64,000 nucleotides of DNA, taken from NCBI GenBank assembly GCA_041394685.1, contig JAWKHU010000038.1, forward strand, positions 130,087 through 194,086, in the 5' to 3' direction. A model generated the notes under the pieces. It was not told where the DNA came from. It saw nothing but the letters and a program-made list of their open reading frames with translations, and made no database searches. Made by a program: the position numbers and the translations under genes. Each line of letters starts with the position of its first letter. The stretch's first letter is position 1. The stretch is from Vicinamibacterales bacterium (lineage in GTDB: Bacteria > Acidobacteriota > Vicinamibacteria > Vicinamibacterales > UBA2999). Shown here in pieces: positions 16,908 through 60,272 of this stretch.

Positions 16908-19889
16908 ATGTCTTGCCTTCTCCGGCGCCTGGCCGGCATCGTCTGGATGCTGGCGCTCGTTCCCCACCCGGCCCTCGCGCAGTACGCCGAGACCGCGCGA
17001 ACGCTGCCGGTCGCCGACGGGCTCGTGTACACCGGCACCCAGATCGGGTCGCGCCTCTTCATCGGCGGGACGTTCACGCACGTCGCGCCGCCAACCGGCG
17101 GCGCCGCGGTGTTCGACGACGCCGATCAGCCCGTTCCGGGTAACTGGCCCGTCATCGGCGGCACCATCTCGCGCATCATCCCGGACACACTCGGCGGGTG
17201 GGTGGCCGTGGGTTCGTTCACCACGGTGAACGGGCAGCCGCACGCGGGGCTCGTGCACGTGACGGGCGCCGGCGAGGTGGACCCGCGGTTCCGCATCGTG
17301 GCCGATGGAGGCATCTCGTCCGTGGCGCTGGCGCACGGACGCCTCTACCTTGCCGGGCCCTTCACCACCGTGAACGGCGCTCCGCGCCGCGGCCTGGCCG
17401 CGCTCGACGCCTCGTCGGGTGCGCTGTTGGCGTGGGGACAGGCCTTCCAGGCCTTCGACATCAGCTTCGTCGCCGCGCTGGTGACCTCGTCCACCGGCGT
17501 CTACGTGAGCCTGACGGGTGCGCCGGGCGGCGGAACCTGGGGGCTCGCGGCCAGTGACGGCCACGTGCTCTTCCACCTGCCCATCATCTACGGGGCCCTT
17601 GCGCCCACCTCGACGCGTCTCTACGCCGCCGGCTACGTCCCCGCCGTGCAGCAGAATCGCGTCGTCGTCCTCGATCCGCAGACGGGCGCCGTCGATCCCT
17701 CGTGGGTGTCGCCCGTCCGGTTCCAGACCATCAGTACTACCAGCGGCGACCGCACGTTCTTCTCCCGCATGATCCTCGACGGCGACACGCTCTACGTGGC
17801 GGGGGCGTTTCGGACCGCCGGGGCGAGCCGGCAACACCTGATGGCGCTGAGCGCGTCGAGCGGCGCGCTGCTGCCCTGGCAGCCGGACGCCGCGTTCAAT
17901 CCGAGCAACGGGGTGCGCGACATCGTCCTGCTGCCGTCGCAGGTCATCGCCGTACACGAGAGCATCGGGTTCCCGGGACCGCTGCACGACGTCACGACAT
18001 TCGATCGGGTGAGCGCCGCCGCGACCCCTCGGCTCCTGCCCGTCTTCGGCAACGTCGCCACCGTCGCCCCGGTGGCCGCCGGAGTCGTGGTCGGCGGCAG
18101 CTTCGGCGGGTTCGGCGGAGAGGCGCGCGCCCAGCTCGCGGCCATCGACCTGGACACCGGCCTGCTCGACGCGTGGGCCCAACCGGCCGGCTCGCCGGCC
18201 AGCGTGATCGTGCTCGCCACGGATGGCGCCGCGCTCTTCGCGTGCCGCGTCCGGGACGTGGGCGGCCTGCCGCAGCCGACGATCGACAAGCTCGATGCCG
18301 ACGACGGCCACGTCGTGGCATCGCTCGACCTCGGTGGGCCGCTGGCGACGGCGCTGCTGCAGATGCGGGCCGCGGGCGGCCGCCTCTACGTCTGGGGGCT
18401 CTTCGACAGCCTGGGCGGACAGAGCCGCACCGGGCTGGCGGCCATCGACATCGCGACGTGGACGGTCCTGCCCTGGGCGCCCGCCACGGACAACCGGGTC
18501 TTCGATCTCGACGTGGTGGGCAACACCGTCTACCTGGCAGGCCACTTCTCCACCATCGACGCCACGCCGCGGCCGGGCCTGGCCGCGATCGACGCAACGA
18601 CCGGCGCGCTCCTGCCGTGGAACCCCGACGCCGACACGGCGCGGTTCTCCGGCGTTCGCGTCCGTGCCGGCCGTGTCCTCGTGAGCGGGGACTTCCGCCG
18701 AATCTCGGCCGTGCGCCGACGAGGGTTTGCCGCGCTGGACCCGGTGACGGCGGACGCCGACGCGTGGAATCCCGACTCGCCACCAGGATTCCCACAGGGG
18801 ATCAACGGCTTCGCGCTGGATGCCGCAGGCATCCTCTACGCGATGGGCGGGTTCTCCACGATCGTCGGCGGTCAACCCTCGGTCGGGCTCTTCGCCCTGT
18901 CGTCCGAGACCGGCCTCCGGCTGCCATGGCAGCCGCCCGGTCCCCTCTCGCTGAGCCGCGCGTCGGCGCTCCCGAGCTGTCTGCTTCTCGTCAGCGTCTC
19001 CCGGGTCGAGACGCCAATCCTGAACAGCTACGCCTGCCTGCCACCGCTGCCGCCGCCCACGAACGTATCCGCCAGCCTCTCGGGCGCGACGGCAACGCTG
19101 TCGTGGACGCCACCAGCGGCGGATGTGACCGGGTACCGCATCGAGGTCGGGCGCGGCGCCGGGCAGCGCGACCTGGCCACCGTGGCCGTGGATGCGGGCA
19201 CGACATCCGCATCGGGCTCCCTGCCGGCCGGTTCGTACGTCGCACGCATCCGCGCGGTGCACGGCGAGGTCGCCAGCATGCCCTCACCCGACGTGAGCTT
19301 CGCGGTCGCGCCGCCGGATGTACCGGGCATCCCGCTGGATCTCTCCGTGGCCACCGAGGGTCAGCGCGTGCGGTTCTCGTGGCGCCCGCCGACGGTCGGC
19401 ACGCCCGCCGGGTACCTCCTGGAAGTCGGCGTGGCTCCGGGCCGCGCGGACTTCGCGTCGCTCACGCTCCCGCCGACGTCCACGTTCGAGGTGCCCACCG
19501 CACCAACCGGCATCTACTGGGCGCGTCTCCGCGCGATCAACGCAGCCGGCGCCAGCGGGCCGTCGAACGAAGTCGTGATCAACGTCGACGGCAGCGCCGC
19601 GCCCTGCTCGCTACCCCCACTCGCACCCGCCGGCCTGGCGGCCAGTGTCACCGCGCGCGTCGTCACCCTCACCTGGATACCGGCCACGACGGGCGCCGTC
19701 TCCAACGCGCAGCGCATCGTTGTCGGGTCGGCCTCGGGACTGGACAATCTCGGCGTGTTCGAAGTGGCGGGTCCGGCCACGACGTTCAGCGCACCGGCGC
19801 CGCCGGGCACGCACTTCGTTCGCGTCTACGGGTTCAACGCGTGCGGCGCAAGCCCGTTCAGCAACGAAGTGCAGGTGGTCGTCCCGTGA
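16908..19889 (+). CDS. Secreted beta-propeller repeat protein (DUF5122/delta-60-like repeats) with three C-terminal FN3 domains
   Basis: Intact ORF with likely start MSCLLRRLAGIVWMLALVPHPALAQ after a TGGAGG RBS. About 12 repeats of the pattern G.V.ALA..G.LY.GG.F..V.G..R.GLAA.D..TGALL.W. Three FN3 modules have the W..P...Y..EVG...G and G.Y.ARIRA.N..G.S.PS..V signatures. Confidence 0.8.
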   Translation: MSCLLRRLAGIVWMLALVPHPALAQYAETARTLPVADGLVYTGTQIGSRLFIGGTFTHVAPPTGGAAVFDDADQPVPGNWPVIGGTISRIIPDTLGGWVAVGSFTTVNGQPHAGLVHVTGAGEVDPRFRIVADGGISSVALAHGRLYLAGPFTTVNGAPRRGLAALDASSGALLAWGQAFQAFDISFVAALVTSSTGVYVSLTGAPGGGTWGLAASDGHVLFHLPIIYGALAPTSTRLYAAGYVPAVQQNRVVVLDPQTGAVDPSWVSPVRFQTISTTSGDRTFFSRMILDGDTLYVAGAFRTAGASRQHLMALSASSGALLPWQPDAAFNPSNGVRDIVLLPSQVIAVHESIGFPGPLHDVTTFDRVSAAATPRLLPVFGNVATVAPVAAGVVVGGSFGGFGGEARAQLAAIDLDTGLLDAWAQPAGSPASVIVLATDGAALFACRVRDVGGLPQPTIDKLDADDGHVVASLDLGGPLATALLQMRAAGGRLYVWGLFDSLGGQSRTGLAAIDIATWTVLPWAPATDNRVFDLDVVGNTVYLAGHFSTIDATPRPGLAAIDATTGALLPWNPDADTARFSGVRVRAGRVLVSGDFRRISAVRRRGFAALDPVTADADAWNPDSPPGFPQGINGFALDAAGILYAMGGFSTIVGGQPSVGLFALSSETGLRLPWQPPGPLSLSRASALPSCLLLVSVSRVETPILNSYACLPPLPPPTNVSASLSGATATLSWTPPAADVTGYRIEVGRGAGQRDLATVAVDAGTTSASGSLPAGSYVARIRAVHGEVASMPSPDVSFAVAPPDVPGIPLDLSVATEGQRVRFSWRPPTVGTPAGYLLEVGVAPGRADFASLTLPPTSTFEVPTAPTGIYWARLRAINAAGASGPSNEVVINVDGSAAPCSLPPLAPAGLAASVTARVVTLTWIPATTGAVSNAQRIVVGSASGLDNLGVFEVAGPATTFSAPAPPGTHFVRVYGFNACGASPFSNEVQVVVP

Positions 19890-21322: not shown

Positions 21323-23260
21323 ATGCGACGAACGCGAGCGTTGGCGACGTGTGCGGCGGTGGCGGCCTGGGCAACCGTGCTGGCGGCGTCGCAAGCCGGC
21401 CCATCGTCCAGCCGCCTGACGCTGGACCTGTACTGGGAGTACGAAACGGTGTCCGATCCGCGGCTGTCGCCGGACGGATCCGAGATTCTCTACACCCGCC
21501 AGTGGATCGACAAGCTGAACGACAAGCGCGAGTCGTCGCTGTGGATCATGAACGCGGACGGGTCGAAGAACCGCTTCCTGGTTCGCGGCAGCAACGCGCG
21601 CTGGTCACCGACCGGCGATCGCATCCTCTACACGGGACAGGGCGAGCCGAAGGGCACGCAGGTGTTCGTCCGATACATGGACGCGGAAGGCGCGACGACA
21701 CAGGTGACCCGTGTCGAGAAAGCCCCGGCCAGCGTCACCTGGTCCCCTGACGGCCAGTCGATCGCCTTCACGATGAAGGTCGAGAAGAAGAACACCTGGC
21801 CCATCGCGATGACGAAGGCGCCGGACGGCGCCAAGTGGACGGAGGCCCCGCGTATCGTCGAGCGGCTGGACTACCGCCAGGACCGCGAGGGCTTCACCGA
21901 CGATGGGTACCGGCACGTGTTCGTCGTGCCGGCCACGGGCGGCACCGCCCGCCAGCTCACCGACGGCGACTGGGACCACAACGGCGTGGAGTGGACGCCC
22001 GACAACGCCACGATTCTCTTCACTTCGCTGCGCGTCCCCGACGCGGACTACCAGTGGCGCGAGAGCGAGATCTACGCCGTATCCGTCGCCACCGGCACGA
22101 TCGCGCAACTGACGCGACGGAAGGGGCCCGACAGCAACCCGAAGGTGTCCCCGGACGGAAAGCGGGTGGCCTACACCGGCAACGACTGGTCAACGGACAC
22201 GTGGCGCGACACGAAGCTCTACGTGATGAACATCGACGGCAGCGGCGCGCAGCTGGTGTCGGGCGACTGGGATCGCTCACCGCAGAACATCGAGTGGAAG
22301 TCCGACGGCACCGGCCTGTATTTCAGCGCGCAGGACCAGGGCACGCAGAACCTCTACCTGCTGCCGCTGGCAGGGTCGCGGGCCGACGAGGTCCAGCCGG
22401 TGACCACGGGGACGCACATGCTGGCGGCCTCGACCTTCGCCAAGGGCAAGGCCGTGGGCGTCCGCAGCTCGTTCCAGGTGCCGCCGGACATCGTCACGTG
22501 GGACCTGGCGGCGCCGGAGCGCGTCACGCAGCTCACGCACGTGAACGACGACATCCTCGCCGGGCGCACGCTCGGGGAGGTGCACGAGATGTGGTACACC
22601 TCGCCGGATGGCGTGAAGGTGCAGGGCTGGTACATCACGCCGCCGGACTTCGACCCCTCGAAGAAGTACCCGATGCAGCTGCACATCCACGGCGGGCCGC
22701 ACGGGATGTACAACGTCGGCTTCAACTACGGCTGGCAGGAGATGGCGGCCAACGGCTACGTCATCCTCTACACCAACCCGCGCGGCAGCACCGGCTACGG
22801 CAGCGCGTTCGGCAACATGGTCATGCGCGCCTATCCGAGCAAGGACTACGACGACCTGATGGCAGGCGTCGACACCCTGATCGGCAAGGGCTTCGTGGAC
22901 ACGCAGAACATGTTCGTCACCGGATGCAGCGGAGGCGGCGTGCTGACGGCGTGGGTCGTCGGCAAGACCGATCGGTTTGCCGCCGCGTCGGCCAACTGCC
23001 CCGTCACCGACTGGCTGAGCTTCGTCGGCACCACCGACAGCGCCAGCTGGTACTACAACTTCGACAAGCTGCCCTGGGAGGATCCGTCCGAGCACCTGCG
23101 CCGCTCGCCGCTCACCTACGTGGGACAGGTCAAGACGCCGACGATGCTGATGACGGGCGTGCAGGACCTGCGGACGCCCATGCCGCAGACCGAGCAGTTC
23201 TACAGCGCGCTCAAGCTGCTGAAGGTGCCCACGGCGATGATCCGCTTCAACAACGAGTGA
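21323..23260 (+). CDS. S9 family serine peptidase (prolyl oligopeptidase/acylaminoacyl-peptidase type) ending at an in-frame TGA; homology continues to 23374
   Basis: AGGAGGA RBS and a signal peptide, then a beta-propeller N-domain (WSPDG repeats). The catalytic Ser is in GCSGGG and the Asp in GVQDLRTP. The ORF stops at ...RFNNE-TGA, and the same frame continues HGTTTTPSNFVRTQLYLRYWFDRH to a TGA at 23372..23374. Confidence 0.8.
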   Translation: MRRTRALATCAAVAAWATVLAASQAGPSSSRLTLDLYWEYETVSDPRLSPDGSEILYTRQWIDKLNDKRESSLWIMNADGSKNRFLVRGSNARWSPTGDRILYTGQGEPKGTQVFVRYMDAEGATTQVTRVEKAPASVTWSPDGQSIAFTMKVEKKNTWPIAMTKAPDGAKWTEAPRIVERLDYRQDREGFTDDGYRHVFVVPATGGTARQLTDGDWDHNGVEWTPDNATILFTSLRVPDADYQWRESEIYAVSVATGTIAQLTRRKGPDSNPKVSPDGKRVAYTGNDWSTDTWRDTKLYVMNIDGSGAQLVSGDWDRSPQNIEWKSDGTGLYFSAQDQGTQNLYLLPLAGSRADEVQPVTTGTHMLAASTFAKGKAVGVRSSFQVPPDIVTWDLAAPERVTQLTHVNDDILAGRTLGEVHEMWYTSPDGVKVQGWYITPPDFDPSKKYPMQLHIHGGPHGMYNVGFNYGWQEMAANGYVILYTNPRGSTGYGSAFGNMVMRAYPSKDYDDLMAGVDTLIGKGFVDTQNMFVTGCSGGGVLTAWVVGKTDRFAAASANCPVTDWLSFVGTTDSASWYYNFDKLPWEDPSEHLRRSPLTYVGQVKTPTMLMTGVQDLRTPMPQTEQFYSALKLLKVPTAMIRFNNE

Positions 23261-23380
23261 CACGGCACGACGACGACCCCGTCGAACTTCGTACGCACGC
23301 AGTTGTACCTGCGCTACTGGTTCGACCGGCACGCGCGCGGGCGCGAGGCCGCAACGTCCGGCCAGCCTCGCTGAGGCCGA

Positions 23381-24022
23381 TCAGTCGCGCGGAATCCCCT
23401 CGCGGTCCAGTGCCGCGGCAAAGGCGTCGAAGGTCGCCTCGGCCGCGCGCACGACCCGCACCTGCTCGGAGGGCGTGGCCGAGAGGCCGAAGTGTTCGAG
23501 CGCGGCGATGAAGCGGAACCAGGCCCCACCGGCCTTGCCGTCGTGCAGCCGCAGGTACGACACGTGCTCGGGCCCCAGGCCCAGGCCCCCAGTGACCGCC
23601 CGCGCGATGATCTCGCCCCCGAGGTGCGAGCCCTGAATCACGTAGGCGGCACCGAACGCGTCGGCGTCGTCGGTAATCTCCGGGACGTCGGGCGCCGGTG
23701 GCGCGGGTTCGGCCTCGAGGGCCGCCAGGTTCTGCAGCAGGCGCACGGCGCGCTCGCCCGCCGAGCGTGCGACGAACACGTAGCCCAGCTCCGCGGCCAG
23801 CGGCGGCTCCAGCGGCAGGACCACCGCGCTGGTGGCCCGGACGAACCTCCGGTACCGATCCAGCGTCAGGACGTCGGGATCGATGAGCCCGAGCCGTCGG
23901 TCCAGCGCACGGTGGCGGGACGAGGTCGCGTTCCGGAGCGATTGGAGCAGCCGTGCATGGCCCGCCAGCGGCGGGAGGGCGGTTTCGAGGCCGGTCATAC
24001 GAGGTCGCTTTGCACGGGTCAT
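23381..24022 (-). CDS. Heme oxygenase-like protein (BphO-type biliverdin-producing family)
   Basis: LLQSLRNATSSRHRALDRRL (proximal-His helix), AYVIQGSHLGG and WFRFIAALE. The start is either 24022 or 23998. Confidence 0.6.
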   Translation of the reverse strand: MTRAKRPRMTGLETALPPLAGHARLLQSLRNATSSRHRALDRRLGLIDPDVLTLDRYRRFVRATSAVVLPLEPPLAAELGYVFVARSAGERAVRLLQNLAALEAEPAPPAPDVPEITDDADAFGAAYVIQGSHLGGEIIARAVTGGLGLGPEHVSYLRLHDGKAGGAWFRFIAALEHFGLSATPSEQVRVVRAAEATFDAFAAALDREGIPRD

Positions 24023-24187
24023 GCCGCCGGTTTCCGCGGTTCCGGCGCCCGGTCGAACGCCGGCCGAGGTAACGCGTTGGCCCGAATGGGAGGCACCCTG
24101 CCCACACACAGCAGAGGCCGGCCCATGGCCGGGCTGGTTGTCGAGCGCCGGCGGCCCGGCGCCCGACACGTCCCGTGAGGAAAGGGC

Positions 24188-25831
24188 TCAGGGCAACCGC
24201 GCCTGCAGGGTCCGGCTGAAGACCGACAGGCCGTCGATATCCCGCAGGTCCACGGTGAGGTCGCCGCTGTGAGCGTTGATGTTCACCTCGCCGAAGAACT
24301 GGAGCCCGGCGTAGGGCGACAGGTTGGACTGCCCCGGCGGCGGCGCCTTGTAGAACACGACCTGCGGCCCGAACGTCCCGTCGAGCGTGTTGGGCCCGAA
24401 GCTGCCGGCATTGAGCGGGCCCGACACGAACTCCCAGAACCCGTCGAAGTACGGGAAGGCGGCACGGCCCGGATCGTAGTAGTGCGCGGCGCAGTAGTGC
24501 ACGTCGGCCGTCAGCCACACCACGTTGTGCACGCGCTTGTTCTTGAGGTACGCGAGCAGCTCGGCGAACTCCAGCTCGCGGCCCTTCGGCCCGCCGGGCT
24601 CGCCGTTGGCAATCGCTTCCCAGCGGGCCTCTCCGGACGGCGTCACGCCGTCACCCACGTTGAGACCGATGGGCATGTCGGCGGCCACCACCTTCCACGT
24701 GGCCCTCGAGTTCTTCAGCCCCGACTTGAGCCACTCCAGCTGCTCGCGGCCGAGGAACGCCGTCTGCTCGCTCGGGTACGGCTGCAGGTTCGCGGAGTTC
24801 GGGCCGCGGTAGGAGCGCATGTCGAGCACGAACAGGTCCAGGAGGGGACCGTAGCCGTAGCGGCGGTAGACACGCTGGCTCTCACGCACGTCGTACGACC
24901 ACATCGGCGCGTAGTCCAGGAACGCGCGCGCGCCACGGGCGATGAGCAGCGGCACGTTCTTCTCCGTGTATCGCGCATCGCCGGACAGATCCTTGGCGTC
25001 GGACCAGTTGTTGGTCACCTCGTGATCGTCCCACTGCCAGATCTGCGGCACTTCGGCGTTGAAGCGGCGGACGTTGGCGTCGAGCAGGTTGTACCGGTAC
25101 CGGCCGCGGAACTCGTCCAGCGTCTCGGCGACCTTCGACACCTCGGGCGTCACGAGGTTGGACCAGGGCTGCCCGCCCTCCGCGGTGGCCGACGAGGCGA
25201 TGGGTCCGTCGGCGTAGATGTTGTCCCCGCTGTGGACGAAGAAGTGGGGGTGCCGCAGGCGCATCGCCTCGTAGATCTTCATGCCGCCGAACGCCTCGTT
25301 GATGCCCCACCCCTGGCCCGCGGTGTCGCCGCCCCACACGAAGCGCAGGTCCGTGCCCTGGCGACCACGCCGGCCGCCCAGCTTGCGTTCGTTGTCCAGG
25401 CTGTCGGGAGGCACGATGAACCGGCCGGTGATCGGCTCGCTCAGCGCGCGGTCGTTCTCCAGGCCCTGGAACGCCACGCGGACGAACACCTCGGCGCCGG
25501 GCTCGAGCCCCGCAATCGCCTGCTTCGCCGTGAAGTCCGTGGTGTCGAGGGCGTGCGGGCCCACCATGCGACCGACCTGCGAGAACTGCTCGTCGTACGA
25601 CCACTCGACCAGCATGCGCGCCGGACGATCGCTGCGGCTCCAGACCACCACCGATCCATCGCCGGGATCTCCGAACTGCAGGCCCTGCAGTGCCTGCGGG
25701 CGCTCGGCCTGCGAGGCGATGATGGCGGGTGCTCCGCCGAGCGACCAGCGGGGGACGACGAGACCCGCGGCCGTGACGGCCGAGGTCTGCAGGAACCGAC
25801 GACGGGATGACGAGGGAACCGATTCGCTCAT
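24188..25831 (-). CDS. phoD: Alkaline phosphatase D family protein, Tat-exported
   Basis: Intact 547 aa. Tat signal is SSRRRFLQTSAVTAAG. PhoD motifs are FVHSGDNIYADG, WDDHEVTNNW and NVVWLTADVHYCAAH. Confidence 0.9.
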   Translation of the reverse strand: MSESVPSSSRRRFLQTSAVTAAGLVVPRWSLGGAPAIIASQAERPQALQGLQFGDPGDGSVVVWSRSDRPARMLVEWSYDEQFSQVGRMVGPHALDTTDFTAKQAIAGLEPGAEVFVRVAFQGLENDRALSEPITGRFIVPPDSLDNERKLGGRRGRQGTDLRFVWGGDTAGQGWGINEAFGGMKIYEAMRLRHPHFFVHSGDNIYADGPIASSATAEGGQPWSNLVTPEVSKVAETLDEFRGRYRYNLLDANVRRFNAEVPQIWQWDDHEVTNNWSDAKDLSGDARYTEKNVPLLIARGARAFLDYAPMWSYDVRESQRVYRRYGYGPLLDLFVLDMRSYRGPNSANLQPYPSEQTAFLGREQLEWLKSGLKNSRATWKVVAADMPIGLNVGDGVTPSGEARWEAIANGEPGGPKGRELEFAELLAYLKNKRVHNVVWLTADVHYCAAHYYDPGRAAFPYFDGFWEFVSGPLNAGSFGPNTLDGTFGPQVVFYKAPPPGQSNLSPYAGLQFFGEVNINAHSGDLTVDLRDIDGLSVFSRTLQARLP

Positions 25832-29308: not shown

Positions 29309-29516
29309 AGGCGTGAGGGGGCGAGGGACACGGATTCTGCGTGAACCCTTCTGATGGTGTCAACCGAACGCGCCAACGTTACAGGAGCCGCGCGTGCGAT
29401 GCCATCGCAACCCGACGGCCTGGCGGGCCGGGCGCCGTCGTCGGCCCCCGTCCACGCACCTCCGGCGGATGTGCGAAGATGCCCGTCGCCACCTCGACCC
29501 ATCACGGACCACGACC

Positions 29517-31121
29517 ATGCGCCAACTCCTGACCCTCGCCGCCCTCGTGACCGCCTCCATCGCCCTGTCGGCGCAGACACCCGCGCGAACGACGACGCTG
29601 GCCGGGCTCGACCCCGCCACCATCGGCCGCATCCGGACCGAGGCCACGCGGAGCTCGCAGGCGGTGGATCACATCTGGTGGCTGTCGGAGGTGTACGGCC
29701 CGAGGCCCACCGGGTCGCCCGCCTTCCAGCAGGCGTCGGAGTGGGCGATGAAGCGCTTCTCCGACTGGGGACTGTCCAACGTGCACCAGGAGCGCTTCCC
29801 GTTCGGCCAGGGATGGACCATCGAACGGTTCTCCGCGCACCTGGTGGCGCCGCAGACGCAGGCCTTCATCGGCGCGCCGCGCTGGTACTCCCCGTCGACG
29901 GACGGTCCGGTGCTCGCCGACGTGGTCCACGTGGACGCTCGCAGCGAGGCCGACCTGGCGAAGTACGCCGGGCAGCTGCGCGGCAAGATCGCCGTGATGC
30001 AGCCGGCCCGGCGCGTCCGCCTGCTGGACGGCCGCATCGTGCTCCGCATGGGGGATCAGGAGTGGGACGAGGCGATGCGCACGCCGATCGAGCCCGCCTC
30101 GGGCGGAGGGCCCGGCCAGGCGTTCCGCAACGCGCAGGCCTTCCAGCAGGCCGTCCAGACGTTCCTCGTGGCGGAAGGCGCCGCCGTGCTGCTCGAGCGC
30201 GGGTCCGACAACGACGAGACGCCGGGCGGCAGCGACCTGCCGTGGATGCAGCAGCGTGTGGACGGTGGGACCGTGTTCCCGACCAATGGCGGCAGCCGCG
30301 ACCCGGATGCCCCGAAGCCTGTGCGCCGTCGGCCACGTTTCGCCGCAGCGCACCGGCAACTGCGACCGTGCGGCTTCGTCGATCGCGCCCGTGCGGATGG
30401 AAGTGAACATCCAGACCCGGTTCCATCCCGAGACGGACCCGGCCGGCAACGCCATCAACACGATCGCGGAGATCCCGGGCACCGACCGCCGAGTGTCGTG
30501 ATCCTCGGCGCCCACTTCGACAGCCATCCCTACGCGGGCGGCGCCACCGACAACGCGACGGGCTCCTCGGCCATGATGGAGGCGGTCCGGGCGTCATCCG
30601 TGCCCTCGGCCTGAAGCCGCGCCGCACGATTCGCGTCGCCCTGGGCCGCCGAGGAGCAGGGGCTGCTGGGATCGCGCGCCCATGCGCAGCGCCACTTCTA
30701 CGACCCGCAGACGGGGAGGTGAAGCCCGATCACGCGCGCGTGGCCGCGCATACTTCAACCTCGACAACGGCACGGCCGCATTCGCGGCGTGTGGGGGCAG
30801 GGCAACCTCGGCGCCATGCCCATCCTCGAGCAGTGGGGCGTCGGTGCAGGACCTCGGCTTCAAGGCGGTCAGCCCGAGGAGCGTGACCTCCACCGACCAC
30901 GTGCCGTTCGACGCGGCGGGCCTGCCCGGCTTCCAGTTCATCCAGGAACGGCTCGAGCATCAGGCGCGCACGCACCATCTGAACATGATAACCTTCGATC
31001 ACGTGCAGGCCGAGGACCTGTGCAGGGGCGCGGTGGCCGCCGTGTTCGCAGGGCATGCGGCCAACTGGCCGGAAAAGCTCCCGCGAAGGCGATGCCGGCG
31101 CGCACGGGCACCGGGCAGTAG
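29517..31121 (+). pseudogene. M28 family aminopeptidase, secreted; at least 4 frame breaks as sequenced
   Basis: Signal peptide is MRQLLTLAALVTASIALSAQ. Pieces in different frames are VRMEVNIQTRFHPETDPAGNAINTIAEIPGTD, VILGAHFDSHPYAGGATDNATGSSAMMEAVR, AYFNLDNGT, and SVTSTDHVPFDAAGLPGFQFIQERLEHQARTHH. Confidence 0.65.
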
Positions 31122-36951: not shown

Positions 36952-37312
36952 ATGGATTTCAGCAAGCTGGACGGGCTCATCCCCGCCGTCGTGCAGGACC
37001 GCACGAGCGGCGAGGTGTTGATGGTGGGTTTCATGAACGACGAGGCCTGGGCGATCACGCAGCGCACCGGGTACGTCACCTTCTTCAGCCGCACGCGCAA
37101 CACGCTCTGGACCAAGGGCGAGACCTCTGGCAACCGCCTGGCGGTAGCGGCAGATCTGGACCGACTGCGACGACGACACGGTGCTGGTGAAGGTGGACCG
37201 GGAAGGCGACGGAAACGTGTGCCACACCGGGCAGCGCTCGTGCTTCTACACGGAAGTGCCGCTGACCGGCGGCGGGCAGCCGGCGGCGGGCGCGGCGGGA
37301 GCAGCCCGATGA
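36952..37312 (+). CDS. hisI: Phosphoribosyl-AMP cyclohydrolase, monofunctional (one frame break near 37150)
   Basis: GGGAG RBS. The N-terminal part is [61 protein letters not shown]. In the next frame it continues [29 protein letters not shown]. The stop TGA overlaps the hisG ATG (ATGA). Confidence 0.8.
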
Positions 37313-38194
37313 AGCTGCGGCTCGGCATTCCCAAGGGCTCGCTCGAGCAGGCCACCGTCCAGCTCTTCCAGCGGGCGGGCTTCCAGGTGCTGGTCTCGTC
37401 GCGCTCCTACTTCCCCTCCATCGACGACCCCGAGATCGAGTGCATGCTGATCCGCGCGCAGGAGATGGCCCGCTACGTGGCCGACGGCATCCTCGACGCG
37501 GGCCTCACCGGCTTCGACTGGATTCGCGAGCACGAGATCGGCCACCCCGAGCAACCACCGCTGGTGCCGTCGCCGACCTCATCTACTCGAAACAGAGCTT
37601 CGGCAAGGTGCGCTGGGTGCTGGCCGCGCCGGAGGCTCCCCGTTCCAGACGGCAAAGGACTTCGAGGGCAAGCGCATCGCGACCGAGCTGGTGCGCGTGA
37701 CACGCGACTACTTCCAGCGCCACGGCGTGAACGTGGACGTCGAGTTCTCGTGGGGCGCCACCGAGGTCAAGCCGCCCGTGCTGGCCGACGCCATCGTCGA
37801 GGCCACCGAAACCGGGTCCACCCTGCGGGCCAACCGGCTCCGCATCCTGGACACGATCCTGGAGTCCAACACCCAGCTGATTGCCAACGACACAGCCATG
37901 GCCGACGACTGGAAGCGGACGAAGATCGAGAACCTCGCACTGCTGCTCAAGGCCGCGATAGAGGCACAGGGCCGCGTGGGGCTGATGCTCAACGTGCCGA
38001 AGGCGAGCCTCGACGAGGTGCTGGGCCTGCTGCCCGCCCTGCAGCGGCCCACGGTGAGCGCGCTCAGCGACCCCGAGTGGGTGGCCGTCAACACCATCCT
38101 GGAAGAGAAGACCGCGCGCGACCTGATCCCCAAGCTGAAGGCCGCCGGCGGACAAGGCATCGTGGAGTATCCGCTGACGAAGATCGTCATGTAG
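37309..38194 (+). CDS. hisG: ATP phosphoribosyltransferase, long form (two single-base frame breaks near 37540 and 37640)
   Basis: The protein is [20 protein letters not shown]...[15 protein letters not shown], then [22 protein letters not shown], then [25 protein letters not shown]...GLMLNVPK...EYPLTKIVM. The length of 886 nt equals 888 minus 2. Confidence 0.8.
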
Positions 38195-38250: not shown

Positions 38251-39551
38251 TGATCCGGGTCGTTCCTTCCACCAATCGCAGGGCCGTGACGGCGCTGCTG
38301 TCCTCCACGCGGGTGCGCGACCGTGTCACCGACCGCAAGGCGGCCGCGATCGTCGAGCGCGTGCGCGCGGGCGGAGACCAGGCGTTGCGTGCCTGCGTGC
38401 GGGAGTTCGACGGCGTGTCCGGACCGCTGGAGATTCCGCGGGCACGCTGGGCGGAGGAGGCCGCGTCGGTTCCCGACGCCGTGCGTGAGGCCATTCGCAC
38501 GGCCGCCCGCCACATCCACCGGGTGGCCCGCGCGCAGGTGCCGCGCGGGTGGCGCGTGCGCGTCGAGCGCGGCGTCACCGTGGAGCAGCGCGTGGTGCCG
38601 CTGTCGCGCGTGGGCTGCTATGTCCCGGCCGGCCGGTATCCGCTGCCGTCGTCGCTGCTGATGACGGCGCTGCCCGCCAGGGCGGCCGGTGTGCCCGAGG
38701 TGATCGTGGCGTGCCCGCGGCCGGACGCCACCGTGTTCGCCGCGGCCATCGAAGCCGGCGTGGACCGCGTCTTTCGGATGGGCGGCGCCCACGCGATTGC
38801 GGCCCTGGCCTACGGCACGCGGAGCGTGCCGCGGGTGGACAAGATCGTGGGGCCGGGCAATCGCTGGGTCTCGGCGGCCAAGTCGCTCGTCACCGCGGAC
38901 TGCGCCATCGACTTCTATGCGGGCCCGACCGAGATCCTCGTGCTCGCGTCGAAGACCCCGCCGGCGTGGGTGGCAGCCGATCTCATTGCCCAGGCCGAGC
39001 ACGATCCGGACGCCCGGGCCGTGTGCGTCACCACGAGCCAGGCGTACGCCAACCGGATCGCGGCCGAAGTGGCCGCCCAGCTCCCCGCCACCGGGCCCGC
39101 GGCCACCTCGCTGGCGCGCCACGGCGGCATCATCGTCGCGCGCTCCCAGCGGGAGGCCGTGGATCTCGCCAACCAGGCGGCTTCCGAGCACCTGGTCGTG
39201 GAGAGCGACGCCGTCGCGGAGCAGATCGTGAACGCGGGCGCGATATTCGTGGGGAGCTGGACCGCCCAGGTGGCGGGCGACTACGCCATCGGCTCGAACC
39301 ACGTGCTGCCGACGGCCGGCGCGGGACGCTACCGCGGCGGGCTGAACGCCGCGGACTTCGTGAAGCTGATCTCCGTGCAGCGCGCCACGGAGCGGGGCCT
39401 GCGGGCCATTGCCGGCGCCGTGACGACGCTGGCGCGAGCCGAGGGCCTGGAGGGACACGCTCGGTCCATCGACGTGCGCATGGGGACCGGCACGCCGCCA
39501 CGAGCCGCACGCGGGGCGCGCGCGACAGCAGGGACGGAGACGACGCGATGA
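38250..39551 (+). CDS. hisD: Histidinol dehydrogenase
   Basis: Intact 433 aa with motifs [27 protein letters not shown] and EGLEGHARS. Confidence 0.9.
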
Positions 39552-40625
39552 CGAGGATACAGGGAGTGCCCGACCTGGGACCTGGGCTCAGGCTGCACCT
39601 GAACGAGAACACCGGCGGCTGTTCGCCGCGCGTGGTGGAGGCCGTCCGCGGATTCACCGCGGAGCGCCTGGCGCTGTGCCCGGACTTCACCGACGCCGTC
39701 ATGGAAACGGCCGCCTTCCTCGGGGTGGACGCCGACCGCCTGGTGCTCACCAACGGGTTGGACGAGGGCATCCTGCTCGCGTCGATCGCCTACACGGTGC
39801 CGCGCGCGCCGGAAGCACTCGTCGAGCTCGGCGCCCCGCTCGTGGTGCTGTCGGGTGTGCCGGAGGTCGTCGTGGCGCTGCCGACCTTCGAGCCGTACTG
39901 CACGCAGCCAGGGGCATGGGGGCGCGCGTCGTCTCGGTGCCCGCCGCGCCCGACTACGCGTTTCCACTCGAGGGCATGCTGCGGGCCATCACGCCGAACA
40001 CGCGGCTCGTCTACGTGAACTCTCCGAACAACCCCACCGGCCAGGTGGTCCCCGCCGACGCCATTCGCGCGGTGGCGGCCGCGGCCGGCCACGCTCTGGT
40101 GTTCGTGGACGAGGCGTAGCCCACGACTTCGCCGGCGAGAACTTCCTCGCCGAGGCGGCCGCGTTCCCCAACGTGCTGATCGGACGGACGTTCTCGAAGG
40201 CGTTCGGCCTGGCGGGCATGCGCGTCGGGGTGATGGCGGCGTCGCCGGCCGTGCTGGAGCCCATCCGGCGCGTCATGCCGCTCTTCAACCTGAACGTGGT
40301 CGCCGTGGCGGCGCTGCGGGCGGCGTTGGCCGATCCCGACTACCGGGCGTGGTATCTCGAGCAGGCCGCGGCGTCGAAGGCCCTCGTCTACGAGACGTGC
40401 GAGCGCCTCGGTCTTCGCTGCTGGCCGAGCGCGGCCAACTTCGTCCTGATCGATGGCGGCGACCGGGCAAGAGCGCTCGTCGCCGGCCTGATCGCGCGCG
40501 GCGTGTTCGTTCGCGACCGCACCGCCGATCCCTCGTGCCCGAACTGCTTCCGGCTGACGGCCGGCGTGGTCGAGCACACCCGGCGTGCCGTGGAGGCACT
40601 GGAGGCCGTATGCGCCGCGGCGTGA
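39548..40625 (+). CDS. hisC: Histidinol-phosphate aminotransferase (two single-base frame breaks near 39900 and 40115)
   Basis: ATGA overlap with hisD. Pieces are [25 protein letters not shown], and in a third frame [15 protein letters not shown] (the PLP-Lys motif). The length of 1078 nt equals 1080 minus 2. Confidence 0.8.
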
Positions 40626-57956: not shown

Positions 57957-60272
57957 TCAGTCCTTCGGCGTGCCGAGCGCCTCGCGAATCGTGCCGAGGA
58001 GCACGGCCGGCGTGAACGGCTTCTGCACGAACGCCAGCGTCGCGTCGCGGACGCCCTCGGCCAGGCGCTGGTCGTTGGTGAAGCTCGACATGTAGACCAC
58101 GCGGAGCCCCGGCAGGCTGGCGACGAGCCGATCCGCCAGCTCGTGACCGCCCATGTCCGGCATCTGCATGTCGGTCAGCACCAGATGGATGCGCTCCCGG
58201 TAGCTGGCGGCCAGCCCGATGGCCTGCGGCCCGCTCCCGGCCTCGAGGACGGTGTACCCGTGCCGCCGCAGGATCTCCCCGACCACGGCGCGGACGTCCT
58301 GCTGATCGTCCACCACGAGGATGGTCTCGGTGCCGCCGCCGGCCTCGGTGGTCGGCACCAGGTTGGGGCGGCGAAGCTCCGGGAGATTCGTCACGGGGAA
58401 CGACACCCTGAAGGTCGAGCCGACGCCGACCGTGCTCTCCACCTGGATGGCGCCCTGGTTCTGCTTGACGATGCCGTAGACGGTCGCGAGGCCGAGCCCC
58501 GTGCCCTTGCCCGTGCCCTTCGTCGTGAAGAAGGGCTCGAACACCCGCTTCATCGTTTCCTCGTCCATCCCGGTGCCGGTGTCCGAGACGACCAGCATCA
58601 CGTGCGGCGTCTCGGCCTGCGGGGTGTCGGCGCCTTCGGGCGCGACGTTGAGGGTTTCGATGGTGAGCCGGCCGCCGCCGGGCATGGCGTCGCGCGCGTT
58701 GAGGATCAGGTTCATCACGACCTGCTCCATCTGGCCCGCGTCGGCGCGGATGCGCCCGAGCGAGTCCGCCAGGCGCACGTCGAGCGCGATCGACTTGCCG
58801 AGCGCGCGGCGCAGCAGGTTCTGGACGCTGCGGACGGCGTCGTTGAGGTCCACGTCCTGCGGCTGGAGGATCTGCCGCCGGCTGAAGGCCAGGAGCTGGC
58901 GCGTCAGCGTCTCGGCGGTGCGGGCGGCCTGGCGGATCTGATCGACGTCCGGATGCGAGGGATGATCCGCACCGAGATCCTCGAGCAGCAGATCGCTGAA
59001 GCCGAGGATGGCCGACAGCAGGTTGTTGAAGTCGTGGGCGATGCCACCGGCGAGCCGGCCGATCGCTTCCATCTTCTGTGACTGCTGCAGTTCCTCGTCG
59101 CTGCGGCGTGTCTCGGTGATGTCCTCGGCCAGGGCCACCATGCGCTGCACCTGCCCGTTCTGCGATCGCACCGGGAACGCCCGTGTCCGGATCCAGCACC
59201 AGCTGCGATCCGGCCGCTCGATGCGGAAGACGTCCACCGTCGGTTCGCCAGCGGCGATGCGGATCTGGTTGTCGAGGACGCCCTGCCGGTCGTCGGGGTG
59301 AATGGTGTGGAACCAGAGGGTCTGGTCGTCGAACGCCTCCTGCGTCGGGCGGCCCCAGATCTGTTCCCACGCGCCGCTCAGGTAGATGGGGCGGAACGAC
59401 GGCAGTTCCGTGATGATGAAGGCCTCGTTGATGTGATCGGCGAGGAGGCGGAAGCGCTCCTCGCTGACCCGCAGGTCGGCCTCCATCTGCTTGCGGGCGG
59501 TGATGTCCACCACCGTCTCGAGCACTGCCGGCTCGTCGTCCCACACGACGGGCGAGGTGATGCAGTCGAGCCAGATGCGGGTGCCGTCGTGCCGGATGCA
59601 CCGGACCTCGAACCTGACGGCATCGGGCGTGCCCCTGGACCTCGCCTCGACGAACTGCTCGAGGCGGGCGCGATCGTCGGGGTCGATGAAGGTCCAGATG
59701 CTCGTGCCCTCGAGCGCGTCGGCGCCGGGCGCGCCCAGCATCCGCGCGAACGCGGGATTGGCAAAACGGATGGTGCCGCCGGCATGAATCAGGATGCCCT
59801 GGATGGAGCCTTCCACCAGGCTGCGGTACCGGCGCTCGCTCAGGCCGAGCTGTGCGGTCACCGCGTAGCGCTCGACGGCGTAGCGCAGCGACTGGTACAG
59901 CGCGCGGCCGTCCACCTGGCCCTTGACGAGATAGTCCTGCGCTCCCTCGCGGACGGCGCTGGCGGCCACCTGTTCGTCGGCGAGTCCCGTCAACACGACG
60001 ATCGGGACGCGCGACGCACCGGCGCGGGCCCGTACGAAGGTCTCCAGCCCCTGGCTGTCCGGCAGGCTCAGGTCGAGAAGGATCGCGTTGAAGTTCTGCG
60101 TCTCGAGAAAGGTGAGCGCCTCGCGAAGCTTCGTCGCGTGCGTCACCGCGATCTCGTCGTCGTGCTCCTCCCGCAGGTACTCGCGCACGAGACGCGCGTC
60201 CGCCGGGTTGTCCTCGACGAGGAGGATGGAGAAGTCCACCCCAGCCGCGCGCTGGAGCTGCTGGGGCGTCAT
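57957..60272 (-). CDS. Hybrid sensor histidine kinase: REC - 3x PAS - HisKA - HATPase - REC
   Basis: Intact 771 aa. The N-terminal REC is ILLVEDNPADARL..LDLSLPD. HisKA is GGIAHDFNNLL. HATPase is DTGTGMD..GLGLATVYG. The C-terminal REC is ILVVDDQQD..TDMQMPDMGG. ATGA overlap with the upstream RR gene. Confidence 0.85.
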   Translation of the reverse strand: MTPQQLQRAAGVDFSILLVEDNPADARLVREYLREEHDDEIAVTHATKLREALTFLETQNFNAILLDLSLPDSQGLETFVRARAGASRVPIVVLTGLADEQVAASAVREGAQDYLVKGQVDGRALYQSLRYAVERYAVTAQLGLSERRYRSLVEGSIQGILIHAGGTIRFANPAFARMLGAPGADALEGTSIWTFIDPDDRARLEQFVEARSRGTPDAVRFEVRCIRHDGTRIWLDCITSPVVWDDEPAVLETVVDITARKQMEADLRVSEERFRLLADHINEAFIITELPSFRPIYLSGAWEQIWGRPTQEAFDDQTLWFHTIHPDDRQGVLDNQIRIAAGEPTVDVFRIERPDRSWCWIRTRAFPVRSQNGQVQRMVALAEDITETRRSDEELQQSQKMEAIGRLAGGIAHDFNNLLSAILGFSDLLLEDLGADHPSHPDVDQIRQAARTAETLTRQLLAFSRRQILQPQDVDLNDAVRSVQNLLRRALGKSIALDVRLADSLGRIRADAGQMEQVVMNLILNARDAMPGGGRLTIETLNVAPEGADTPQAETPHVMLVVSDTGTGMDEETMKRVFEPFFTTKGTGKGTGLGLATVYGIVKQNQGAIQVESTVGVGSTFRVSFPVTNLPELRRPNLVPTTEAGGGTETILVVDDQQDVRAVVGEILRRHGYTVLEAGSGPQAIGLAASYRERIHLVLTDMQMPDMGGHELADRLVASLPGLRVVYMSSFTNDQRLAEGVRDATLAFVQKPFTPAVLLGTIREALGTPKD

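What the first reader, a model, noticed from the sequence alone, without database searches (positions are those of the whole stretch)
23246..23374. In-frame TGA at a conserved Trp position, just before the catalytic His of the S9 peptidase
The ORF ends ...AMIRFNNE-TGA-CAC GGC ACG.... In the same frame it continues HGTTTTPSNFVRTQLYLRYWFDRH to a second TGA at 23372.
- S9 peptidases typically read E-W/G-H-G at this point, with the His being the triad residue. The stop therefore removes the catalytic His.
- A single TGG to TGA change explains it.
- Options are a sequencing substitution, a recent nonsense mutation, or low-level read-through.
Basis: partly seen in the sequence, partly recalled or inferred. 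Interest (0 to 1): 0.4.

Follow-up and report, generated by a model that had tools for sequence, protein, structure and literature searches.

The report
Premature stop in S9 peptidase gene
One base turns a conserved tryptophan codon into a stop just before the catalytic histidine of an otherwise intact soil-bacterium peptidase gene; this is either a base error in an error-prone draft assembly or a very young knockout, not special decoding, so it is ordinary.

Summary
The S9 peptidase gene (window 21323-23374, + strand) has an in-frame TGA at 23258-23260 (codon 646). It then runs on in frame for 37 conserved codons to a second TGA at 23372-23374. The next codon, 23261-23263, encodes the catalytic His647.

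- **Conservation:** 111 of 114 close homologues have Trp at codon 646 and 3 have Ala. Seven of eight relatives' genes read TGG there. No orthologue has a stop.
- **No decay:** dN/dS is the same on both sides of the stop, and conserved columns look normal.
- **Recoding is not supported:**
  - The genome has RF2, and TGA terminates this gene and hisD.
  - The genome does use selenocysteine. Its formate dehydrogenase has a textbook SECIS hairpin, but the peptidase site has none and homologues have Trp, not Cys.
- **The assembly is demonstrably error-prone:**
  - hisC, hisG, hisI and selA are split across reading frames.
  - Two tRNAs have impossible 6-nt anticodon loops.
  - Internal duplicate contigs differ by indels and by transition-rich substitutions.

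If the stop is real, UGA-C is a weak terminator and read-through would insert the wild-type Trp.

This scan has noted similar TGA-at-Trp cases in other genomes and also judged them ordinary.

The parts
21323..23260 (+). S9 peptidase ORF as it reads under the standard code: 645 codons plus the premature TGA. It has a predicted N-terminal signal-like segment, a beta-propeller and most of the alpha/beta-hydrolase domain.
   Evidence: Translation. Pfam DPPIV_N/PD40 and Peptidase_S9. This truncated product is the only form on record, in the genome's own NCBI entry. The signal peptide is inferred from the sequence MRRTRALATCAAVAAWATVLAASQAG and was not tested.
22928..22930 (+). AGC codon of the nucleophile Ser536, in the motif G-C-S-G-G-G.
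   Evidence: Read. Ser is invariant in 114 homologues.
23165..23167 (+). GAC codon of the triad Asp615.
   Evidence: Read. Asp is invariant in 114 homologues.
23258..23260 (+). In-frame TGA at codon 646, followed by C (UGA-C context).
   Evidence: Homologues have Trp in 111 of 114 and Ala in 3. Relatives have TGG in 7 of 8.
23261..23263 (+). CAC codon of the catalytic His647, translated only if the TGA is passed.
   Evidence: It aligns with the His of the His block of PDB 8wt1. His is invariant in 114 homologues.
23261..23374 (+). Conserved in-frame continuation: 37 codons and the natural TGA terminator at 23372-23374. The terminator lies 6 nt from the convergent heme-oxygenase-like gene's stop at 23381-23383.
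   Evidence: - Residues 647-668 are identical to several orthologues.
- dN/dS downstream is 0.10-0.15 against 0.16-0.19 upstream.
- Homologue lengths of 678-690 aa match this end.
- The neighbouring gene was identified by Pfam.

Best explanation
Under the ordinary bacterial code, a single G-to-A difference at the third base of the Trp646 codon (TGG in relatives, TGA here) creates a premature stop. The gene is otherwise intact and selectively maintained, and encodes an exported S9 serine peptidase. As assembled, the product lacks the catalytic His647 and the last helix, and would be inactive.

My leading reading is that the base is an uncorrected consensus error of an error-prone, long-read-type metagenome assembly, and that the organism has a normal TGG codon and a working enzyme.

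- **Shown:** the stop itself, its position at a conserved Trp, the intactness of the rest of the gene, and the poor quality of the assembly.
- **Inferred:** that this particular base is one of the assembly's errors.
For: **The gene shows no other sign of decay.**
- It has no frameshift and no second stop.
- It deviates at 5 of 335 highly conserved columns (median 2 among homologues, range 0-11; rank 98 of 115).
- Purifying selection is equal before and after the stop.

**The assembly contains errors that cannot be biological.**
- hisC, hisG and hisI in this window are split over reading frames.
- selA is broken by a short out-of-frame stretch.
- A tRNA-Gly and a tRNA-Ser have 6-nt anticodon loops.
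- An M28 peptidase 7 kb away matches only Pfam profile positions 9-46 of 193.

**Substitution-type errors occur too.**
- In 82.7 kb of internal duplicate contigs there are 1333 gap columns, 807 clustered mismatches and 279 isolated mismatches.
- Only 54% of the isolated mismatches lie at third codon positions, so about half behave like random errors.
- Transitions (A/G 89, C/T 93) are the largest class.

**Published support:** G-to-A and A-to-G are the characteristic nanopore substitution errors and can exceed 50% of reads near methylation motifs (bioRxiv 10.64898/2026.01.14.699587).

**Uniqueness:** No other assembly carries TGA at this site.
Against: - The stop lies in a stretch of about 12 kb (window about 16.9-29.3 kb) with no frame break by my codon-position GC scan. 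Its neighbours are intact there (PhoD, heme-oxygenase-like, a 1051-aa fn3/DUF5122 gene). The assembly's errors are patchy, so an isolated error is less expected here.
- My rough estimate of isolated nonsense errors (order 10 per genome) is no larger than the number of real young nonsense alleles a free-living bacterium may carry.
- The gene is accessory. Clear orthologues exist in only about 7-8 of 19 same-genus genomes, and several near-complete ones lack it, so real loss is plausible.
- I do not know the sequencing platform. Long-read origin is inferred from the error pattern.
- No reads could be examined.
Confidence: 0.5

Rival explanations
1. The stop is a real, recent nonsense mutation (TGG to TGA) carried by most of the sampled population. 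The peptidase gene is a very young pseudogene or a strong hypomorph. Termination at UGA-C is inefficient and the near-cognate Trp-tRNA would insert the wild-type residue, so a small fraction of ribosomes would make a fully normal enzyme. This is passive leakiness, not a programmed device.
For: - The local 12 kb is free of frame breaks and its neighbouring genes are intact.
- G:C to A:T transitions are the commonest cause of bacterial nonsense pseudogenes (PMC9122581).
- The gene is dispensable in the genus. It is absent from several near-complete relatives, and the genome has about 19 S9-type matches.
- At least five other clean-looking in-frame stops occur in genes with paralogues.
- In-frame stops under purifying selection, and weakly expressed 'pseudo-pseudogenes', are documented (PMC7918605; PMC9122581).
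Against: - Nothing distinguishes it from a base error.
- There is no second lesion, no relaxed selection and no second assembly with the same allele.
- The assembly is demonstrably unreliable at the single-base level.
- Read-through level in this phylum is unknown.
Confidence: 0.4
2. The UGA encodes selenocysteine, and the enzyme is a selenoprotein with Sec next to the catalytic His.
For: - The organism does use Sec. It has a tRNA-Sec with an 8-bp acceptor stem and a long variable arm.
- selA scores above its cut-off.
- A formate dehydrogenase has TGA at the classical Sec position.
- That formate dehydrogenase TGA is followed by a strong hairpin with a GGUCU apical loop.
Against: - Homologues have Trp (111) or Ala (3) at this column, never Cys.
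- The downstream RNA forms only a weak hairpin with an ACCC loop and no G. It folds at -16.5 kcal/mol against -29.8 for the formate dehydrogenase control, and the fold z-score is 0.04.
- Rfam finds nothing.
- No orthologue in metagenomes carries TGA here.
- selB was not found above its cut-off in the 75%-complete genome.
Confidence: 0.02
3. The organism reads UGA as tryptophan, either through a table-4-like reassignment or through a special tRNA-Trp that decodes UGA efficiently.
For: - The residue expected at the site is Trp.
- tRNA-Trp(CCA) variants with a 4-bp anticodon stem that read UGA exist in some bacteria (PMC13092985).
- The real tRNA-Trp gene of this genome is not in the assembly, so its form is unknown.
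Against: - RF2 (prfB) is present well above its cut-off.
- TGA is the natural terminator of this very gene at the position where homologues end.
- hisD matches its profile at positions 2-393 of 393 with no internal stop, and its frame ends at a TGA.
- Most genes in the window also end at TGA.
- The genome is 70.8% G+C.
- No other in-frame TGA aligned to Trp survived the filtered genome-wide paralogue scan.
- The only TCA-anticodon tRNA is tRNA-Sec.
Confidence: 0.01

Closest known systems
S9 (prolyl oligopeptidase family) serine peptidases of the acylaminoacyl-peptidase / dipeptidyl-aminopeptidase type. The nearest solved structure is PDB 8wt1 ('S9 family peptidase'). The nearest sequences are Vicinamibacterales/Acidobacteriota 'S9 family peptidase' proteins (P0003-P0122).
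   Same: - Same architecture: N-terminal beta-propeller plus C-terminal alpha/beta-hydrolase domain.
- Has the GxSxGG nucleophile motif.
- Ser-Asp-His in the usual order.
- Has the WFD(R/K) C-terminal helix.
- 81-90% identity to uncultured Vicinamibacterales proteins over the searched C-terminal region (residues 400-683).
   Different: The triad His and the last 37 residues lie behind an in-frame TGA. The standard-code product is a 645-residue protein without the catalytic His.
Young nonsense pseudogenes and 'pseudo-pseudogenes' with low-level stop-codon read-through in bacteria (Salmonella proteogenomics, PMC9122581; in-frame stops under purifying selection, PMC7918605).
   Same: - A single transition-type nonsense codon in an otherwise intact gene.
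- UGA-C context, which the literature describes as a weak terminator.
- Near-cognate tRNA-Trp would restore the native residue (PMC5289835).
   Different: There is no evidence here that the allele exists in the organism, that it is conserved in any lineage, or that it is read through. In the Salmonella study, read-through involved mainly UAG.
Residual consensus errors of long-read (nanopore-type) metagenome assemblies, including the G-to-A / A-to-G substitution bias (bioRxiv 10.64898/2026.01.14.699587).
   Same: - The same genome shows indel-split essential genes and damaged tRNAs.
- Its duplicate contigs show transition-rich isolated mismatches.
- The change here is G-to-A.
   Different: The sequencing platform is not known to me. 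The site lies in a locally clean stretch. No methylation motif was identified.
Bacterial selenoprotein genes (UGA plus a SECIS hairpin), for example formate dehydrogenase alpha subunit.
   Same: An in-frame UGA followed by His, in a genome that has tRNA-Sec, selA and a genuine Sec-type formate dehydrogenase.
   Different: There is no SECIS-like hairpin. Homologues have Trp, not Cys. No orthologue has UGA at the site.

Membership tests
Peptidase family S9 (Pfam PF00326 plus propeller) | Sequence match to the S9 catalytic domain above the curated threshold, with an N-terminal beta-propeller. | tested here: met
   PF00326 at 151 bits (cut-off 22.6), and DPPIV_N and PD40 above their cut-offs. PDB 8wt1 at E 3.5e-90.
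Peptidase family S9 (Pfam PF00326 plus propeller) | Nucleophile Ser in GxSxGG and the acid Asp. | tested here: met
   G534-C-S536-G-G-G and D615. Both are invariant in 114 homologues.
Peptidase family S9 (Pfam PF00326 plus propeller) | Catalytic His present in the translated product. | tested here: not met
   The His647 codon (23261-23263) lies one codon after the in-frame TGA. The standard-code product ends at residue 645. The feature is met only if the TGA is an error or is read through.
Bacterial selenoprotein | Sec-insertion machinery in the genome. | tested here: inconclusive
   tRNA-Sec and selA are present, and a Sec-type formate dehydrogenase is present. selB was not found above its cut-off in a 75%-complete genome.
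Bacterial selenoprotein | SECIS hairpin just 3' of the UGA, with a G-containing apical loop. | tested here: not met
   Only a weak hairpin with an ACCC loop; fold z-score 0.04. No Rfam match. The formate dehydrogenase control in the same genome has the GGUCU-loop hairpin.
Bacterial selenoprotein | Cys or Sec at the aligned position in homologues. | tested here: not met
   Trp in 111, Ala in 3, Cys in none.
UGA-to-Trp reassigned genetic code (table 4 / 25-like) | Loss of release factor 2. | tested here: not met
   prfB at 502 bits, above its cut-off of 370.
UGA-to-Trp reassigned genetic code (table 4 / 25-like) | TGA not used as a terminator, with many in-frame TGAs at Trp positions. | tested here: not met
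   TGA ends this gene where homologues end. It also ends hisD and most window genes. No other Trp-aligned TGA survived the filtered paralogue scan.
UGA-to-Trp reassigned genetic code (table 4 / 25-like) | A tRNA-Trp able to read UGA (UCA anticodon, or CCA with a 4-bp anticodon stem). | tested here: inconclusive
   The only ARAGORN 'tRNA-Trp(cca)' is a false call inside a coding sequence. No genuine tRNA-Trp gene is in the assembly. The only TCA anticodon is tRNA-Sec.
Assembly (consensus) error | Independent proof that the same assembly carries single-base errors, including in essential genes. | tested here: met
   hisC, hisG and hisI split across frames. selA is split. tRNA-Gly and tRNA-Ser have 6-nt anticodon loops. 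Error spectrum from duplicate contigs.
Assembly (consensus) error | Reads disagree with the assembled base. | not testable with these tools
Nonsense pseudogene | Further decay or relaxed selection in the gene. | tested here: not met
   No further lesion. 5 of 335 conserved columns deviate, which is within the range of homologues. dN/dS is about 0.1-0.2 on both sides of the stop. This is compatible only with a very young event.

The most novel reading that the evidence does not exclude
The TGA is a real allele maintained in the population, and the weak UGA-C terminator is read by Trp-tRNA at a few percent. The cell would then make a small amount of exactly wild-type peptidase. That would make the stop an expression-throttling 'pseudo-pseudogene' rather than a dead gene.
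Probability: 0.08. Interest if true: 0.3.

Novelty: already known. Interest (0 to 1): 0.1.

Why it matters
It matters mainly as an annotation and quality note. The deposited 645-residue protein lacks its catalytic His and should not be taken as evidence for an unusual S9 variant, a selenoprotein or an altered code. If reads confirmed the stop, it would be one more example of a very young nonsense allele in an accessory exported peptidase. It would be of the forgiving kind, where leakage restores the native Trp. That is a known phenomenon of modest interest.

Tried and rejected
- **Collection scans:**
  - A codon-biased pattern with TGA at this site found 0 hits in metagenome contigs.
  - A strain-specific pattern with N at the variable base found 0 hits in metagenome contigs and 0 in genome contigs.
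  - So no second assembly of this population is available.
- **Exact look-ups:** The read-through protein is not in the 15-billion-protein collection. The truncated one occurs only in the genome's own record.
- **Selenocysteine:** rejected.
- **Code reassignment:** rejected.
- **First genome-wide paralogue scan:** It gave 191 'in-frame stops', but many were alignments of non-coding frames of GC-rich paralogous DNA.
  - After filtering on codon-position GC and amino-acid composition, 27 remain.
  - Most of those are short garbled stretches, and about 6 look like clean single stops.
  - I use these numbers only as rough guides.
- **ARAGORN's tRNA-Trp(cca) on contig 65:** It is a false positive inside a hydrolase-like coding sequence. 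My early note 'tRNA-Trp CCA only' is withdrawn.
- **rpoB:** It gave no match in this 75%-complete genome, so it could not serve as a quality probe.
- **The 'TAG inside' an S9 paralogue on contig 69:** It lies upstream of that gene's start. The paralogue is intact.
- **Methylation motif:** I did not find a way to tie the site to one.

Full report
**What is there**

The + strand of window 21323-23374 carries one long frame. It starts with ATG and a signal-like N-terminus, then runs 645 codons to ...AMIRFNNE. It hits TGA at 23258-23260 and continues in the same frame (HGTTTTPSNFVRTQLYLRYWFDRH...) to a second TGA at 23372-23374.

Read through, the 683-residue product is a complete S9 peptidase.
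- Pfam Peptidase_S9 scores 151 bits over residues 471-671, which is across the stop. DPPIV_N and PD40 propeller repeats lie in front.
- The solved S9 peptidase 8wt1 aligns to residues 41-673 at E 3.5e-90.

The triad is Ser536 (GCSGGG, codon 22928-22930), Asp615 (23165-23167) and His647 (23261-23263). His647 is the codon directly after the TGA.

**Conservation at the site**

A search with residues 400-683 returned thousands of homologues. The best 120 are 81-90% identical over that region and come mostly from soil metagenomes. The named ones are Vicinamibacterales/Acidobacteriota S9 peptidases.
- In an alignment of 114 full-length homologues, Ser536, Asp615 and His647 are invariant. Column 646 is Trp in 111 and Ala in 3.
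- In the species-representative genomes of the same family and order, 19 orthologous or near-orthologous loci have no internal stop.
- At DNA level the codon is TGG in 7 of 8 loci read and GCT in one.

It is not a family-wide rule: 8wt1 has Asn there and an own-genome paralogue has Gly.

**State of the rest of the gene**
- There is no frameshift and no second stop.
- The read-through protein departs from the consensus at 5 of 335 columns that are at least 95% conserved. The median among homologues is 2 and the range is 0-11.
- Against the five nearest relatives, dN/dS is 0.16-0.23 upstream of the stop and 0.10-0.15 for the 26 alignable codons downstream.
- Residues 647-668 are identical to several orthologues.

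The stop is therefore either not real or very young.

**Is it recoding?**

Changed code: no.
- RF2 is present at 502 bits.
- TGA terminates this same gene where its homologues end. It also terminates hisD and most genes of the window.
- The genome has 70.8% G+C.
- The filtered genome-wide scan found no other in-frame TGA aligned to Trp.

Selenocysteine: no, although the organism does use it.
- It has a typical tRNA-Sec and selA.
- It has a formate dehydrogenase with TGA at the classical ...NRT-U-HAPSVAGL position.
- That formate dehydrogenase TGA is followed by a strong hairpin with a GGUCU apical loop, -29.8 kcal/mol over 63 nt.
- The peptidase site has only a weak hairpin with an ACCC loop (-16.5 kcal/mol), and the region folds no better than shuffled sequence (z 0.04).
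- Rfam finds nothing there.
- Homologues never have Cys at this column.
- A scan of the metagenome collection for TGA in this codon context found nothing.

tRNA-Trp: the one ARAGORN call is a false positive inside a coding sequence, and the true gene is missing from this 75%-complete assembly. The idea of a 4-bp anticodon-stem tRNA that reads UGA (PMC13092985) could not be tested directly. It is made very unlikely by the normal use of TGA as a stop.

**Quality of the assembly**

I checked it and it holds.
- hisC is spread over at least two frames: Pfam profile positions 106-187 in one frame and 201-361 in another.
- hisG lacks its first 51 profile positions in frame, and hisI its first 43.
- An M28 peptidase about 7 kb downstream of the site keeps only positions 9-46 of 193.
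- Elsewhere in the genome, selA is interrupted by a short out-of-frame piece.
- A tRNA-Gly and a tRNA-Ser have 6-nt anticodon loops.

These are essential genes, so the defects are errors and not biology.

Twenty-eight small contigs duplicate parts of larger ones at 95.5-99.8% identity. Over 82.7 kb they differ by 1333 gap columns, 807 clustered mismatches and 279 isolated mismatches.
- Of the isolated mismatches in clearly coding DNA, 54% are at third positions. That is about midway between random error (33%) and true variation (about 75%), so roughly half are error-like.
- A/G and C/T transitions make up 65% of them.

Isolated, transition-type base errors therefore do occur in this assembly, at roughly one per ten indels. 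Scaled from the density of frame breaks, that is a few hundred per genome and on the order of ten accidental stop codons. This estimate is rough.

A recent preprint reports G-to-A and A-to-G as the typical nanopore substitution error, sometimes above 50% of reads near methylation motifs. The platform of this assembly is not known to me.

**Weighing error against a real mutation**

For error:
- the demonstrated unreliability of the assembly;
- the G-to-A type of the change;
- the complete lack of any other lesion.

For a real allele:
- The stop lies in a stretch of about 12 kb with no frame break and intact neighbours, whereas the errors are patchy.
- The gene is accessory. Clear orthologues exist in only about 7-8 of 19 same-genus genomes, and several near-complete ones lack it.
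- Young single-lesion nonsense alleles are common in bacteria.

I could not obtain reads. I also found no second assembly of the population. My odds are about 0.5 for error, 0.4 for a real recent nonsense allele, and under 0.05 for any recoding.

**If it is real, how would it work?**

The standard product would lack His647 and the C-terminal helix and should be inactive. This follows from what is established for the Ser-Asp-His mechanism of alpha/beta-hydrolase-fold S9 peptidases.

The stop is UGA followed by C. According to the literature summarised in PMC5289835:
- +4C weakens termination, especially at UGA;
- UGA is misread by tRNA-Trp in E. coli and B. subtilis.

Any leaked product would carry Trp and so be identical to the ancestral enzyme. 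That is passive leakiness giving at best a hypomorph. Nothing here suggests a programmed element.

**Comparison and verdict**

The gene is an ordinary member of a large Vicinamibacterales S9 peptidase group. The TGA is an ordinary premature stop of a well-known kind, or an artefact. This scan has flagged the same pattern (TGA at a conserved Trp in an otherwise intact gene) in several other genomes, and the follow-ups there also judged it ordinary. I did not check those. Interest is low.

Noticed in passing
G000 contig C54, minus strand, TGA at reverse-strand offset 16695 (outside the window): A formate-dehydrogenase-type molybdopterin enzyme has TGA at the classical selenocysteine position (...NRT-U-HAPSVAGL). 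A strong SECIS hairpin with a GGUCU apical loop follows it. So this Vicinamibacterales bacterium is a genuine selenocysteine user.
   Followed up: partly
G000 contig C57, complement 17327-17422; contig C34 194674-195969 (outside the window): There is a tRNA-Sec with an 8-bp acceptor stem and a long variable arm. selA is interrupted by a roughly 60-nt out-of-frame piece, which is an assembly indel pair. selB was not found above its cut-off.
   Followed up: partly
window 37148-38191 and 39424-40622: hisI, hisG and hisC are each split across reading frames. hisD (38343-39479) and hisB are intact. These are assembly indel errors in essential genes.
   Followed up: yes
G000 contig C92 8213-8286 and contig C33 40918-41006 (outside the window): A tRNA-Gly and a tRNA-Ser are well folded but have 6-nt anticodon loops (two-base 'anticodons' cc and ga). 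This is probably a one-base homopolymer deletion in the assembly.
   Followed up: partly
G000 contig C65, complement 60045-60123 (outside the window): ARAGORN's only tRNA-Trp(cca) call is a false positive inside a hydrolase-like coding sequence. No genuine tRNA-Trp gene is in the 75%-complete assembly.
   Followed up: yes
G000, 28 contig pairs, e.g. C94 within C48, C100 within C42, C130 within C38 21377-22788: Small contigs duplicate parts of larger contigs at 95.5-99.8% identity (82.7 kb in all). They differ mostly by indels and garbled patches, and look like unmerged low-coverage or strain-variant copies.
   Followed up: partly
window 29355-30611 and downstream to about 31.7 kb: An M28 peptidase gene keeps only Pfam profile positions 9-46 of 193 in its frame. 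The following 1 kb has no consistent coding frame, so it is probably an error patch.
   Followed up: partly
window 23381-24187 (-) and 24188-25831 (-): A heme-oxygenase-like gene (weak Pfam PF01126 match) lies directly downstream of a PhoD-like phosphatase in the same frame. It is convergent with the peptidase, with only 6 nt between the two stop codons.
   Followed up: partly
G000 contig C38 about 9613 (TAG), C59 about 40188 minus (TAG), C46 about 25343 minus (TAG), C39 about 1025 minus (TAA), C44 about 99220 minus (TAG): These are other clean-looking single in-frame stops in genes that have intact paralogues: an amidase, an aldo-keto reductase at its conserved Tyr, and others. They are the same kind of defect as the one studied. 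Offsets are 0-based on the named strand.
   Followed up: no
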